DNA from: Negaprion brevirostris
Taxonomy: Eukaryota
DNA length: 64,000 nucleotides
Reading direction: 5' to 3'
Assembly (NCBI GenBank): GCA_030324005.1
Contig: JARDVH010000124.1
Coordinates: forward strand, 33,723,423 to 33,787,422
Shown: positions 19,401 through 31,204 of the stretch, in pieces
Layout of the letters: each line of letters opens with the position of its first letter
How positions within the stretch are numbered: the stretch's first letter is position 1
Position numbers and translations under genes: made by a program
The notes under the pieces: model-generated
Told to the model about the DNA's origin: nothing
The model's database searches: none
Seen by the model: only the letters and a program-made list of their open reading frames with translations

Positions 19401-19663
19401 CCTACTTCGCTTTTCTGGCACGGATCTGCTAATTGCATAAAGCACAAAAGGAGAAAATAAATTAGGAGGGGATCCCAATGCCAACAAAAAAGTGGGGTGG
19501 CAGAATGATGAATACTGCTGCCTCTCAGAGCCTGGGACCCAGGTTCAATTCCAGCCTTGGGTGACTGTCTGTGTGGGACTTTGCTTGTCTTTCTGTGTCT
19601 GTTTCTTCCCAGCGTCCAAAGATGTGCATATTAGGTGGATTGACCATGCTAAGTTGACCCTTA

Positions 19664-19778
19664 TGCCAGAATTTTACCACCTCGCTCAATCGAGGTTCGT
19701 AAGATCCCACCCAAGACCAATAGCGAATGCCATTCTGTGATCTTTGCCTGCCTTGGGCATGCCAGTAAAATTCTGGCA
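19664..19778. mobile_element. 115-bp MITE, PIF/Harbinger-type
   Basis: Perfect 14-bp TIRs tgccagaattttac...gtaaaattctggca flanked by a TTA duplication (19661-63 and 19779-81). Confidence 0.88.
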
Positions 19779-19819
19779 TTAATGTCCAAAGACGTGTAGG
19801 TTACGATGATTTTGCTTTG

Positions 19820-19882
19820 GTATGGTCAGCGCAACATCGAGGGCCAAAGGGCTTGTACTGCGCTGTAATGTTCTATGTTCTA
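19820..19882 (+). mobile_element. Severely 5'-truncated CR1/HER1-like LINE (or related SINE) tail inside the SINE
   Basis: ggtcagcgcaacatcgagggccaaagggcttgtactgcgctgtaatgttctatgttcta: CR1-type terminal region ending in (tgttcta)n, after which the host SINE resumes. Confidence 0.7.
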
Positions 19883-20002
19883 ACCGTGTGGGGTTACGAA
19901 TCGGGTCGGGGGTTGGGCCTGTTATGACGCACTGGGGGGTCAGTGCCGACTCGAAGGGCAAAATGGCCTTTTTTTGCACTGTAGGGATTCTATGGTTCTA
20001 TG

Positions 20003-20160
20003 ATTCTCTGGCTTCCCCGCAAAGTGTTTCTCGCGGATCTACTGGTCCTGTCGCTGTCAATGGGATTTGCATCCCATGCAACCGGGAATCCCATGGCGAG
20101 CGGGTGCTGTCAGTGGGACCAGAAGATTCCATCGACGTGAACAACCGGAGACTTCCTGTC
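20003..20160. mobile_element. Degenerate MITE-like element abutting the SINE tail
   Basis: GC/CpG-rich patch with partially complementary ends (gattctctgg / ccggagactt), similar in style to the other MITEs here. No clear TSD. Confidence 0.45.
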
Positions 20161-26849: not shown

Positions 26850-29640
26850 AAATATCAAATAATCCTGAAGGAAGATAGTTCTGTTGAAGGTCACAGACAG
26901 CTTTTTCATCACTCCGCACTTGCAATGCACAAATGTTACCAGACGCTTGTCAGCTCAAACTTGAAGGTTGTCCAGGTCCTGCTTTACTCTAACATGGGAT
27001 GGTTTCATTGTTGGAAGAACTGTAAATCACCTGTGAACAGCCTGACCTTGTAATAGAAGGAGGCCATCAATGAAACAGTTGAAGATCATTGGACTAAGAA
27101 TGGTGACCTGAGGAGCTTCTTCAACAACCATGATCATCCTTCTGTGTGTCAACTATGACTCCAGTTATTGAAGTTTCTTTTCCCTTTGACTCCCATTGAT
27201 TTTTTTTTAGGTTGCTACCATAAAAGTTGCTGGATTGTTATGAAAGCCCTACTAATTCACTTACATCCTTCAGGAATTTACTACCATCTCCTAGTCTGGC
27301 TAACTCAAGTACACCCCCCATTTGATTAGTATACGCTGATTGGATTGTTGTAATGTTTGAATGTTGCTTTGAAATCACTGATAATTATTCTAACCTTTCC
27401 TCTGCACTTGTACCCATGTGCATAGATTAAGGCTGTTGGATCAGAACCTCATCAACTGTTTTGGGCTGGACCTGAACAATAGGTTATTGTAGGATAGATG
27501 AAGCTTAGTGACAGTATCAACTGTTCCTCCCCTCACTCCATGGATTATTGGGATGGATCTGATGGAACTGTAATTAGCCAGTTTAGATTTGTCCTTTCTT
27601 GAGGTGAATGCAATTTTCCACTTTGCAGGTGGATGCCAATGCCATAGTATAACCAGAACAGCTTGATTAAGAGAATGTTATTTATGGTGCATCGATCTTC
27701 AGCACTCCAACTGGTATTTTGCCAATTCCAATCAACTTCACTATGCCCAGCGCACCTGGCTAATACTGATTGTCACGTGGAGTGAACTAAATTGGTTGTA
27801 CATTGGTATCTATGACAGTGGGGACTTTAGAAGAAGATGGGATAGGATAATCTTCAAATGAACATGTTTCCAAACACTTCAACCCTGACGCTTGGACTCA
27901 CACGCTGTATTCAGTCATTATTGAAGACATTACTGGTAACTTCTCCTGCAGTTAATTGCTTGATTGTCCACTGAAATTCTCATCTATATGTCGTTGTGCA
28001 AAAATTCTTTGGGTGTGGGTCCATTCTGTCCTTTGAACTCCAGTTTCTGACATTTAATATGCAGGTAGGCCTATATTGTAATATCAGTAGGTTAGCACTT
28101 CTTTATAATGTATGCCTGGTGCTGCTCTTGACATGTGCTCCGCAGAATTTGGCCTCTGTGCTTCATGTTGATGGATGATTTAGGGATGTACTCGAGTATG
28201 TGATTACTGATCAGGGTGGGACACAATGTTGTTGCTGATAGGCTACCTGATAGATGCTCAGTTTGGGATTATATCTAAAATGAAGTATTTTCACTGCTTT
28301 GAACATTGACAGATTTCATGTGAACGAATGATTGGTCCTTTTGTCCCAGTCTCAATAAATGGCTGGATATATTGGGGGTGTTTGCTTTCCAACATGACCA
28401 TCACATTTCACAAGCACTTTATCTTCCAGCTTTAGTGGTGAAACTCTGAATTTTATGTTTCCCTTGGTCTTTACTTTCATATGACTCATATGTTCTCGGT
28501 TGCATTTGAGTACATGTTGATCATTAGCTCTGCGATGTAGCTCAGGAAAATGTGTGCGCATGGGTTATGCAAAGATGTATCTAAATGGAGGCTTTTCAAT
28601 AGTCAGTGAGGAATCTCATTGTACTTGTTCACAGCTGGAGCAGCACAGCACACATTTGTCAAAGATAGGGAAGTCTAAAACTAGAGGGCACAGGTTTAGG
28701 GTGAGAAGGGAGAGGTACAGAAGAGTCCAGAGGGGCAATTTTTTCACTTAGAAGGTGGTGAGTGTCTGGAACAAGCTTCCAGAGACAGTAGTAGATGTGG
28801 GTACAATTTTCTCTTTTAAAAAACATTTAGGCAGTTACATGGGTAAGATTGGTACAAAGGGCTATGGGCCAAATGCGGGCAACTGGGATTAGTTTAGTGG
28901 TAAAAACTGGACAGCGNNNNNNNNNNNNNNNNNNNNNNNNNNNNNNNNNNNNNNNNNNNNNNNNNNNNNNNNNNNNNNNNNNNNNNNNNNNNNNNNNNNN
29001 NNNNNNNNNNNNNNNNCGTAGACAAGTTGGGCCAAAGGGTCTGTTTCCAGGCTATAAACTTCTACTTCTATCTGTCTAGTCTATAACATTTAACATGATG
29101 GCGTTATCATACCACACAATTCTCACTGACAAGACAAGCTTCAAGAAGACAGTATAATGATCATTCCTACTAATACAATTGGAGATCAATTTGTCAGTGA
29201 TTGAAAATTTGGGATGGATAAGACCAAAAGGTTTGTTCCCTCATTTGGTTCGCTCGCTACCTGTTGCAGGTCCAGTCTAGCAGCTGTATGCTTCAAGGTT
29301 CAGCCATTTCAGTCAGTAATGGTATGAATGAATCACTTGGTTAGTATGTCATTCTCGTTTCTCTTGATGCTTCTTTCCAGTAATATTTAATATGGATGGT
29401 ACTGTTTCATCCATTGGATGGGCTGCGGTGATGGGGGAGAGGATGATGAGTGGGGACTGATCAGCAGGAGACTTCCTTGACCTTGGTGTGAAGCCATGAG
29501 ACTTAATCGGATCCAGGGAATATATTGAGAGAGATTGTGGTCACTCTTATTTGATTGTGCATCACTGTGCTCTCACCTCTAATTATCCTACCAGTAGAAC
29601 TGCATATGCCCAGGGAAGGTAATGGAAAAATCAGGAATGC
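26850..29640 (-). mobile_element. Long decayed CR1/L2-group LINE ORF2, interrupted by younger insertions
   Basis: Antisense RT-like segment near 27061-27200 (aatgaaacagttgaagatcattggactaagaatggtgacctgaggagc, resembling the GVPQGS-LGP region) and further degenerate segments to about 29640. Boundaries approximate. Confidence 0.55.
28661..29079 (+). mobile_element. CR1 (HER1-like) LINE 3' end
   Basis: Encodes SKTRGHRFRVRRERYRRVQRGNFFT then V-WNKLP, the CR1 ORF2 C-terminal motifs, followed by a 3'UTR ending ttgggccaaagggtctgtttcc. Contains an N gap. Confidence 0.88.
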
Positions 29641-29799
29641 TGGAAATAACAGATATTTAACTAGTTTATGGATACTCTACAAACTATGCATCGTCAATTG
29701 GGCTGATATTGCTGGTCTTATCCTGAAATAATACTGGATCACTACCAACAGAGCTGTTCATGACTGTGCTTCAACTGAGTGGCCTGCTGCTGACTTGCC

Positions 29800-30055
29800 A
29801 CCCTCAGAGTATACTTATCAAACTAGGGGTGTACATGAGTTAGCCAGACTGGGAAATGGTAGTATGGTCTCTTTCCTGAAGGATGTCAGTGCATTAGTAG
29901 GGCTTTTACAACAATCCAGCAACTTTGATGGAGTTTCATCTGGTGATGGCCCACAAATTACTGAATTCAATTTCACAGCTTGCCACAGTGAGATTTGAAC
30001 CTATAGCCTCCACAAGTCAGTTGCTGGTCCAAAAGGCACTCTACACTGCACTACC
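29800..30055 (-). mobile_element. Old SINE/LINE-derived fragment (Deu-like central domain)
   Basis: ccagactgggaaatggtag...ttcctgaaggatgtcagtgcattagtagggcttttacaacaatccagcaac is the reverse complement of a related + strand copy at about 27222-27300. Confidence 0.5.
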
Positions 30056-30079
30056 TCATAGCAAACAAAACAAGTAATA

Positions 30080-31204
30080 GGCAGCACAGTGCCACAACGG
30101 TTAGACCTGCTGCCTCACAGCACCAGGGAGCGGGTTCGATTACAGCTTGGGTAGCCGTCTGTGTGGAGTTTGCAAGTTCTCACTGTGTCTGTGTGGGTTT
30201 CCTCCGGGTGCTCTGGTTTCCTCCCACAGTCTAAAGATGAGCAGGCTAGGTACAGTGGCCATGCCTTAGGGTTCTATTTTACCAATTTGATTCTAAGTGC
30301 TAGGTGGACTAGGAGTGTTTCAGATCCGAGTTTTAGACCCTTTCTCAGGCACCCCCATTCACACTCTGCCCGAAAAATTATCAGCAATTTCGAATCACAC
30401 TGCAGGAGCCTGTGGGCAGGGCTTAACACACCCAAAATCGCGCAGCTCCGATCGGTGCGTCCAACCACGTACGTGCAGAAAAAAGTGATGAATGCGGCTC
30501 CCCTCCCACATCGCTCCCCGGCCAGATAATGCCTCCTTGTGGCCCCCACACACACTGTCCTACCCCTTATCCCCCCTAGCTCCTCCCATCACTCAGATTG
30601 ATCAGGGGCCCCTCTGCCCCTCCTCCTCACTGATCACAGGCTCAGTGGCAGTGAACACCCACCACCTTCCCCCTCAGTGATCTTAGGCAGAATGGCAGCG
30701 GACACCCCTCCCCCCCGCTGATCTCAAGCAGAGAGCCGTCGGATGCTTGGCACTACCTCCTCACTAACTGGGGCGCCTGAATCGGACTTCTGTGGAGCGT
30801 GTCTATTTTGCACCAATTCTGAATGGGTGAATGCGATGGTAAAGGCGGAATTGCCGGTAAGGTTGGGTGTGCAGTCCATTAAGTCAATTTAAATGTGTGC
30901 AAATGCATTTAAATGGCTATCGTGCCCATTTTGGGTGTGACCCTGATCGCGACCGTTTTTGGGCCTTGGGAAAATGGAACTGGCGCAGAGGCGGGTGCGG
31001 ATTGCGTACTCGCCTCACGTCTGACTTTACCAAGTTTTCGCACCCGAAAACAAGCACAACGTGATGGTAAAATCGGGCCCGTAGCGTCAGGGGGATTAGC
31101 AGGGTAAATATGTAGTAGGGTTACGGATAGGGCCTGGGTGGGATTGTTGCCACTGCAGTCTCAATAGGCCGAAGGGCCTTCTGCACTGTAGGGATTCTAT
31201 GGTT
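30080..31204 (+). mobile_element. HE1-type V-SINE split by an 812-bp MITE
   Basis: The 5' part (30080-30268) has the B-box ggttcgatt and V-domain gtgggtttcctccgggtgctctggtttcctcccacagt. The 3' part (31081-31204, gtcagggggattagcagggtaaat...gcactgtagggattctat) is colinear with the copy at 22897. Confidence 0.9.
30269..31080. mobile_element. 812-bp non-autonomous PIF/Harbinger-type element
   Basis: Imperfect TIRs gggttctattttacca / tggtaaaatcgggccc (13 of 16 complementary), flanked by TTA and GTA (probable mutated TTA TSD). CpG-rich interior with no coding capacity. Confidence 0.82.

What the first reader, a model, noticed from the sequence alone, without database searches (positions are those of the whole stretch)
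19640..31100. Two different Harbinger-type MITEs inserted at the same TTA site of two separate HE1 SINE copies
Seen: the SINE at 19492 reads ccatgctaagttgaccc-TTA-[115-bp MITE]-TTA-atgtc, and the SINE at 30080 reads ccatgcc-TTA-[812-bp element]-GTA-gcgtc. The inserts differ in length and interior but share a GC-start/ATTTTAC TIR style and sit at the homologous position just 3' of the V-core. The third, uninterrupted copy has TGA there (gctaaattaact-TGA-gtgtc, 23083-85). Known: PIF/Harbinger elements make 3-bp TWA duplications and some show extended target preference. Inference: an abundant SINE may act as a preferred landing site for a DNA-transposon family, giving it dispersed low-cost targets even inside a constrained developmental gene. 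Only two events support this.
Basis: partly seen in the sequence, partly recalled or inferred. Interest (0 to 1): 0.72.

Follow-up and report, generated by a model that had tools for sequence, protein, structure and literature searches.

The report
MITE insertion hotspot inside shark SINE
Small cut-and-paste jumping genes landed independently, hundreds of times, at the same three letters of a very common retroposon in this probably shark genome, most likely because that spot happens to match the 13-letter DNA sequence their enzyme prefers everywhere, not because they seek out the retroposon.

Summary
Exact patterns find 298 right-hand and 213 left-hand junctions of these TIR elements at the TTA at consensus position 198-200 of the SINE (controls 2 and 0); 18 of 30 right-hand and 29 of 30 left-hand loci checked lie in the SINE. 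Two other TTA sites of the same SINE give 3 each. The inserts are independent: many lengths, both orientations, two SINE subfamilies, no single clade. But the SINE as a whole is not enriched: 5 of 70 unbiased elements against 6.8% of bases. A target model learned from 176 flanks outside SINEs gives the palindrome GACAC-WNW-GTGTC; the TSD is WNW, not TWA (11 of 176). It scores this site about 180-fold above average and predicts the junction counts within about twofold. Copies with a better-matching left flank (GACCC) are over-represented among hit copies. Two hot-site elements lead into Harbinger-type transposase remains. Residual: two V-core sites are hit 2.5-5 times less than predicted. Verdict: a real hotspot produced by the known extended target preference of PIF/Harbinger-like elements acting on a multicopy near-match.

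The parts
19496..20003 (+).
   Evidence: blastn to consensus built from the sample: 8-200 at 19496-19663, 3' part to 20003
19661..19663 (+). left TSD, TTA, at SINE position 198-200; left flank is the favoured GACCC variant (model odds 347)
19664..19778 (.). MITE1, 115 bp, perfect 14-bp TIR; member of an abundant group of about 125 bp
   Evidence: (762 candidates, 40 scored)
19779..19781 (+). right TSD, TTA
19823..19882 (+). 60-bp 3' tail of another repeat (LINE-type tail by appearance) inserted in SINE copy 1
   Evidence: 23 hits in 20 of 120 sample loci, up to 92% identity
22897..23212 (+). SINE copy 2, subfamily A, uninterrupted; site reads TGA at 23083-85 (model odds 20)
   Evidence: 87% identity to consensus A over 317 bp
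30084..31204 (+). SINE copy 3, subfamily A, split by MITE2, about 10 bp lost left of the site
   Evidence: consensus 4-186 at 30084-30264 and 195-323 at 31078-31204
30266..30268 (+). left TSD, TTA
30269..31080 (.). MITE2, 812-bp non-autonomous TIR element; its last 354 bp match (72%) the end of an element in L238 that runs on into Harbinger-type transposase remains
   Evidence: (3131 exact family TIR ends)
31081..31083 (+). right TSD, GTA (one change from TTA)

Best explanation
Many separate TIR elements inserted at one position of this SINE family, most likely because a Harbinger-type transposase prefers the 13-bp palindrome GACAC-WNW-GTGTC and the SINE carries a near match (GCCCC-TTA-GTGTC) in some 250,000-300,000 estimated copies. 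Shown: the hotspot, the independence of the inserts, the motif learned outside SINEs, the lack of overall SINE enrichment, and the twofold fit of predicted to observed counts. Inferred: that a PHIS/Harbinger transposase with its partner protein moved these MITEs by cut-and-paste, reads five bases on each side of a 3-bp staggered cut, and needs nothing from the SINE beyond those 13 bases.
For: Hotspot: TIR+TTAGTGTC 298, control 2; left junction with the SINE anchor at exact spacing 213, control 0; TIR+TAAGGGGC 59. The other two TTA sites tested give 3 and 3, although their 8-mers are about as common (115 and 68 against 105 per Mb). Motif outside SINEs, 176 ends: after the TSD G .61, T .60, G .43, T .75, C .41, flat from position 9 on. 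The model gives site 198 odds 179 (bootstrap 65-438), rank 1 on consensus A in 217 of 300 resamplings; the other six TWA-type 8-mer sites scored on consensus A or B get 0-0.65. Predicted against observed at 17 exact ends per Mb: 242/298, 63/59, 119/213, and 37/45 for the predicted second site in the SINE tail. Share of TTAGTGTC junctions at the hot site: predicted 68% (53-80), seen 17 of 28. Subfamily C tail sites have a perfect right half and a poor left half: 20 of 104 sites, 0 of 28 junctions, p=0.004. Hit copies carry the favoured GACCC flank in 46 of the 100 listed junctions (hand tally) against 21 of 96 unhit copies, p=0.0005. No overall SINE enrichment: 5 of 70, 0 of 29, SINE share 6.8%. 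Transposase link: L218 and L238 start at the hot site with this TIR and hold DDE_Tnp_4-type remains. Extended target preference is a known trait of PIF/Harbinger (PMC2836001, passages; PMC3016246, passages).
Against: The additive model over-predicts two V-core sites: 33 and 44 predicted against 7 and 17 seen (hand count). The ratio site 198 / site 76 is about 30 against a predicted 3.6 (1.1-14). Left junctions at 198 are 1.8 times the lower-scale prediction, and the left/right ratio 0.71 lies above the predicted 0.38-0.57. With a smaller training set (115 ends) site 198 ranked third or fourth. The absolute scale is uncertain by 2.6-fold (17-45 true exact ends per Mb); at the upper scale all counts are over-predicted. 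GACCC enrichment is weaker than the model's 6-fold: against the anchor-matched control it is 46 of 100 versus 12 of 41 (odds about 2, by my reckoning not significant), and against the strictest control 4 of 28. No full-length autonomous element with both TIRs was found. All copies are about 15-25% diverged, so flanks are read through decay.
Confidence: 0.85

Rival explanations
1. The SINE context itself attracts the transposase on top of the 13-bp motif, for example through the loosely TIR-like stretch just left of the TTA, Pol III chromatin, or a target preference that evolved toward this repeat as a safe harbour, as in Dada.
For: Site 198 is hotter relative to V-core sites 76 and 80 than the model predicts. 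Left junctions are 1.8 times the lower-scale prediction. Younger SINE copies post-date part of the MITE activity (hit copies 81% against unhit 85% identity to consensus, p=0.018), which could hide a modest boost. Dada targets carry a copy of the element's sub-terminal repeat near the TSD (PMC3706591, passages).
Against: Per-site rate for TTAGTGTC in SINE against outside: odds 1.5, p=0.39. An estimated 97-99% of insertions are elsewhere, and SINE share of unbiased elements equals SINE share of the genome. The motif is the same outside SINEs, and its best match is not the SINE sequence.
Confidence: 0.11
2. One or a few SINE+MITE composites were copied as a unit by retrotransposition or segmental duplication.
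For: Shared position; one near-identical pair (L058/L059, 99.8%), which lies 160 bp apart across an N gap and looks like an assembly duplicate.
Against: 42 clean full inserts, 106-1281 bp, in subfamily A (22) and B (20). Short inserts in both orientations (17:8), long ones too. Highest identity between two short in-SINE inserts 79%. On a tree of 25 in-SINE and 29 outside copies the label needs 14 changes, and 0 of 200 bootstrap trees give one. A query with SINE flank plus MITE1 found no second composite among 29 other loci.
Confidence: 0.02
3. Artefact: decayed SINE sequence mimics a TIR next to the TTA, or junctions are chance matches.
For: The SINE's left flank resembles a TIR end loosely; 1 of 30 loci (L050) is such a false match.
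Against: Both SINE halves flank a full TIR element in 13 of 30, 20 of 30 and 22 of 30 loci; TSD identical in 21 of 42 and at least 2 of 3 bases in 37 of 42 clean inserts; reversed-pattern controls 0-2.
Confidence: 0.02

Closest known systems
PIF/Harbinger elements with extended target preference: mPing/PIF (9 bp), zebrafish Harbinger3_DR (15-bp palindrome) (PMC2836001 passages; PMC3016246 passages)
   Same: 3-bp TSD, short TIRs mostly starting with G, non-autonomous MITE derivatives, palindromic preference beyond the TSD, DDE_Tnp_4 transposase remains in elements with the same ends.
   Different: The motif here is GACAC-WNW-GTGTC (13 bp), unlike the A/T-rich palindrome around CWG given for Harbinger3_DR. 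The TSD is loose WNW, not TWA. It is shared by both the short and the long MITE groups.
PHIS groups Pangu (ANT), NuwaI (CWG), NuwaII (C|TNA|G) (PMC4482050, passages)
   Same: 3-bp TSD, GG/GGG TIR starts; ANT is the most enriched class here (43 of 176).
   Different: No single published TSD class fits: TWA 11, ANT 43, TNA 14, CWG 4, WNW 119 of 176. Group assignment needs a transposase tree, which I did not make.
Dada transposons targeting snRNA and tRNA genes (PMC3706591, passages)
   Same: A DNA transposon found again and again at one position of a multicopy Pol III-type sequence.
   Different: Dada families with definable ends are all in their target genes, have 6-7-bp TSDs and no TIRs. Here an estimated 1-3% of insertions are at the SINE site, TIRs are present and the TSD is 3 bp.
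MER6/MER6A, a Mariner MITE carrying a V-SINE domain (PMC6887750, abstract only)
   Same: A V-SINE and a MITE nested in one another.
   Different: There one composite amplified as a MITE with SINE sequence inside; here many MITEs inserted separately into SINE copies.

Membership tests
PHIS superfamily (Harbinger-like DNA transposons) | 3-bp target-site duplication | tested here: met
   TSD identical in 21 of 42 and at least 2 of 3 bases in 37 of 42 clean hot-site inserts; paired ends outside SINEs
PHIS superfamily (Harbinger-like DNA transposons) | short TIRs | tested here: met
   14-bp perfect TIR in MITE1, 12 of 15 in MITE2; 3131 exact family ends
PHIS superfamily (Harbinger-like DNA transposons) | DDE transposase of the Harbinger type in an element with the same ends | tested here: inconclusive
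   PF13359 hit 400 bp inside the TIR in L218 (E=7e-24); L238 holds transposase pieces behind an end 72% like MITE2. Both are broken, crossed by N gaps, and their far TIR was not found.
PHIS superfamily (Harbinger-like DNA transposons) | second ORF with Myb/SANT domain in the autonomous element | not tested
   no full-length autonomous copy delimited
PHIS superfamily (Harbinger-like DNA transposons) | extended palindromic target preference | tested here: met
   GACAC-WNW-GTGTC from 176 non-SINE ends
PIF/Harbinger group in the strict sense of PMC4482050 | TWA TSD | tested here: not met
   TWA in 11 of 176 flanks outside SINEs, about what base composition gives
Pangu group (PMC4482050) | ANT TSD | tested here: inconclusive
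   ANT 43 of 176, about 3 times background but a minority; no transposase tree
HE1 / V-SINE | tRNA-derived head, central V domain, tail shared with the HER1 LINE | not testable with these tools
   PMC3747384 table lists HE1 as the tRNA-type V-SINE of sharks and rays but no reference sequence was at hand; PMC155270 not held. A- and B-box-like motifs are visible in the consensus; no tRNA or Rfam match. The name and the V-domain limits are recalled.
Target-specific transposon of the Dada kind | copies confined to the multicopy target | tested here: not met
   2 of 70 unbiased MITE2 elements and 0 of 29 MITE1 copies at the site

The most novel reading that the evidence does not exclude
A shark Harbinger-like lineage has a target motif tuned to the host's most abundant SINE, helped by a TIR-like stretch beside the cut site: an early, leaky stage of Dada-style safe-harbour targeting by a TIR transposon, with a WNW TSD class outside the six described PHIS groups.
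Probability: 0.08. Interest if true: 0.7.

Novelty: new member of a known kind. Interest (0 to 1): 0.36.

Why it matters
It gives a vertebrate Harbinger-like target motif (GACAC-WNW-GTGTC) with a loose WNW TSD that I did not find in ten literature searches, and a natural experiment on it: an estimated 1,000-2,500 independent insertions at one base of one repeat, with a standing SINE variant (GACCC) and a third subfamily as built-in controls. It shows that a 100-fold positional hotspot in a repeat can arise from sequence preference alone, with no enrichment of the repeat as a whole. In practice, shared MITE-in-SINE positions in sharks are homoplastic and should not be read as common descent or as a composite family.

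Tried and rejected
Composite amplification: rejected. TWA as the target rule: rejected. Preference beyond 5 bp from the TSD: none seen at positions 9-20. One good half-site being enough: half scores uncorrelated in 36 pairs, match counts fit independence, and subfamily C tail sites are unhit; C is not younger than A (82% against 81.5% identity). GACCC enrichment as an older-subfamily effect: unhit GACCC copies are less, not more, diverged (87% against 83%). De novo TIR pairing on the sample gave mostly noise (9 of 657 pairs). The loose TIR pattern also hits a tail of another repeat and an internal pseudo-end, which were removed. Search for the far end of the transposase-bearing element L218 within 5.5 kb failed. 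One search used coordinates shifted by 19 bp (SINE flank plus 96 bp of MITE1); it still sampled the family. The first element clustering merged all inserts through their TIRs and included mis-delimited rows; 10 of 52 were dropped. One hot-site flank hidden in the training set was removed. No gene was identified in the window. No tRNA or Rfam hit. Earlier-findings look-ups by words, sequence and near place were empty.
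Full report
OBSERVATION. The window holds three copies of one SINE on the + strand: 19496-20003, 22897-23212 and 30084-31204. Copy 1 is split by a 115-bp element (19664-19778) with a perfect 14-bp TIR between TTA and TTA. Copy 3 is split by an 812-bp element (30269-31080) between TTA and GTA. 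Copy 2 is intact and reads TGA at 23083-85. Both inserts lie at consensus position 198-200. The genome is 2.69 Gb.

IS IT A HOTSPOT? Yes. A degenerate TIR end followed by TTAGTGTC occurs 298 times genome-wide (reversed control 2). Of the first 30 loci, 18 continue in SINE sequence and 13 show both SINE halves around a TIR element; one is a false TIR match and two are an apparent assembly duplicate, leaving 17 in the SINE and 11 outside. The left junction, with a 9-base SINE anchor at exact spacing, occurs 213 times (control 0); 29 of 30 loci checked are SINE. TIR+TAAGGGGC occurs 59 times (29 of 30 SINE). Two other TTA sites of the SINE give 3 junctions each, although their 8-mers are about as common in an evenly spaced sample of 120 x 10 kb, 1.0 Mb without N (115 and 68 against 105). 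From 213 junctions, the anchor being intact in 42 of 109 copies and 17 of some 40 ends being exact, I estimate at least 1,300 events, about 0.4-1% of A/B copies and 1-3% of all insertions. None of 138 A/B sites in the sample carried a detected insert, so two of three in this window is a lucky draw.

ARE THE INSERTS INDEPENDENT? Yes. Of 52 unique full inserts, 10 were dropped as mis-delimited, duplicated or uncertain. The 42 left span 106-1281 bp, 22 in subfamily A and 20 in B, with TSDs identical in 21 and matching at 2 of 3 bases or more in 37. Short inserts lie in both orientations (17:8), long ones likewise. No two short in-SINE inserts exceed 79% identity. On a tree of 25 in-SINE and 29 outside copies the label changes 14 times, and none of 200 bootstrap trees gives a single origin; mild clustering against shuffles (16-21 of 500) is expected because the outside set is rich in MITE1 relatives.

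IS THE SINE ENRICHED? No. The SINE covers 6.8% of sampled bases. Of 70 long-family elements taken in genome order (70 of 3131 exact ends), 5 lie in the SINE: 2 at position 198 and one each near 106, 279 and 317. Of 29 MITE1 relatives none does. Among 48 ends in the sample one element, read by eye, sits in the SINE tail.

THE TARGET MOTIF. Flanks of 176 ends outside SINEs give a TSD of W-N-W followed by G .61, T .60, G .43, T .75, C .41, and nothing from position 9 on. The short and long groups give the same logo. The implied target is the palindrome GACAC-WNW-GTGTC. TWA makes up 11 of 176 TSDs, ANT 43, WNW 119. The SINE site reads GCCCC-TTA-GTGTC: a perfect right half and 3 of 5 on the left. 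An additive model gives it odds 179 (bootstrap 65-438) and rank 1 on consensus A in 217 of 300 resamplings; the other TWA-type sites scored get 0-0.65. With 17 exact true ends per Mb the model predicts 242, 63, 119 and 37 junctions where 298, 59, 213 and 45 are seen; the last is a second SINE site (tail, position 317) that the model named before I searched it. At 45 ends per Mb, the upper bound, all are over-predicted 1.5-3-fold.

BUILT-IN CONTROLS. (a) TTAGTGTC sites in the sample: 42 hot, 20 in the tail of a third subfamily (C), 42 outside. Junctions: 17, 0, 11. Hot against outside p=0.39; C tail 0 of 28, p=0.004, as the model predicts from its poor left half. (b) A standing SINE variant, GACCC, matches the motif better. 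It is found in 46 of the 100 listed junctions (of 213; hand tally) against 21 of 96 unhit copies (p=0.0005), 4 of 28 with a strict filter (p=0.002) and 12 of 41 with the anchor-matched control (odds about 2, weak). Window copy 1 is such a copy. (c) Subfamily C has TCA and a changed right half at the homologous position and scores 5; I did not search its junctions directly.

AGAINST. Sites 76 and 80 in the V-core region were predicted at 33 and 44 and show 7 and 17 (hand count of all 37 rows; the script was given 8 and 16, a miscount that changes nothing). The ratio 198/76 of about 30 is outside the model's range (1.1-14). With 115 training ends site 198 ranked only third or fourth. Hit copies are a little older than unhit ones (81% against 85%, p=0.018), so a SINE-specific boost of about twofold could be masked. 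I leave 11% for such a context effect.

WHICH TRANSPOSASE? PF13359 has 5248 candidates in the genome (150 scored). One hit lies 400 bp inside a TIR that starts at the hot site (L218). A second hot-site element (L238) has an end 72% like the last 354 bp of window MITE2 and runs, across an N gap, into transposase pieces. Both resemble an open 466-aa frame in L379 (50-63% identity) that Pfam calls DDE_Tnp_4. Their far ends and a Myb/SANT ORF were not found, so the link is likely, not shown.

MECHANISM. Shown: position, independence, motif, no overall enrichment, approximate fit of counts. Inferred from PIF/Harbinger biology (two proteins, 3-bp TSD, 9-15-bp target preference that travels with the element's proteins; PMC2836001, passages): the transposase complex reads five bases each side of a 3-bp staggered cut, and a SINE present in hundreds of thousands of copies supplies a near-optimal site by coincidence.

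LITERATURE. Seen as passages: PMC2836001, PMC3016246, PMC4482050, PMC3706591, PMC3747384. Abstract and outline only: PMC6887750, PMC9179366. Not held: PMC2290759, PMC155270. No supplements were opened; the family tables of PMC4482050, and Repbase or Dfam, may already list these elements. Ten searches showed, by title and abstract start, no report of this hotspot or motif. An earlier scan note on this genome (e1-9051847) describes MITEs hitting one position of another retroelement and also favours sequence preference; I did not test it.

VERDICT. A real, strong and independent-insertion hotspot, explained in the main by a known property of Harbinger-like elements. New in detail (motif, WNW TSD, scale), not in kind. 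Interest 0.36.

Noticed in passing
window 19823-19882: 60-bp 3' tail of an abundant repeat, LINE-type by appearance, inserted in SINE copy 1 about 40 bp after the MITE; 23 hits in 20 of 120 sample loci.
   Followed up: partly
window 27218-27339 and 29804-29931: Two inverted arms of about 125 bp, 87-92% complementary, 2.5 kb apart; no hit at E 1e-4 in the 1-Mb sample, so possibly the ends of one long-TIR element rather than two copies of a common repeat.
   Followed up: partly
sample loci, e.g. L065, L080, L126: A third SINE subfamily (C) shares the first 190 bp but has a different 3' half ending in AATAAA-type repeats; it lacks the hot site and is about as common and as old as subfamily A.
   Followed up: partly
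SINE consensus position 317 (loci L347-L376): Second hotspot in the tandem-repeat tail of the SINE: 45 exact left junctions, control 0, predicted beforehand by the target model.
   Followed up: yes
L378:2762-3850: Open 363-aa DDE_Tnp_4 frame, the best PF13359 hit of the genome, with no matching TIR pair around it; may be a domesticated HARBI1-like gene (name recalled, untested).
   Followed up: no
L379:2516-3913: Open 466-aa Harbinger-type transposase frame with a TIR-like motif about 1.5 kb upstream; candidate autonomous partner of these MITEs.
   Followed up: partly
L058/L059 (C25:49628121 and 49628281): The same junction twice, 160 bp apart across an N gap; looks like an assembly duplication, a kind also seen in other loci of this assembly.
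   Followed up: no
L002-L030: Most MITE1 relatives have unequal ends (TGCC at one, GGCC or GGCT at the other), whereas the window copy has TGCC at both.
   Followed up: no
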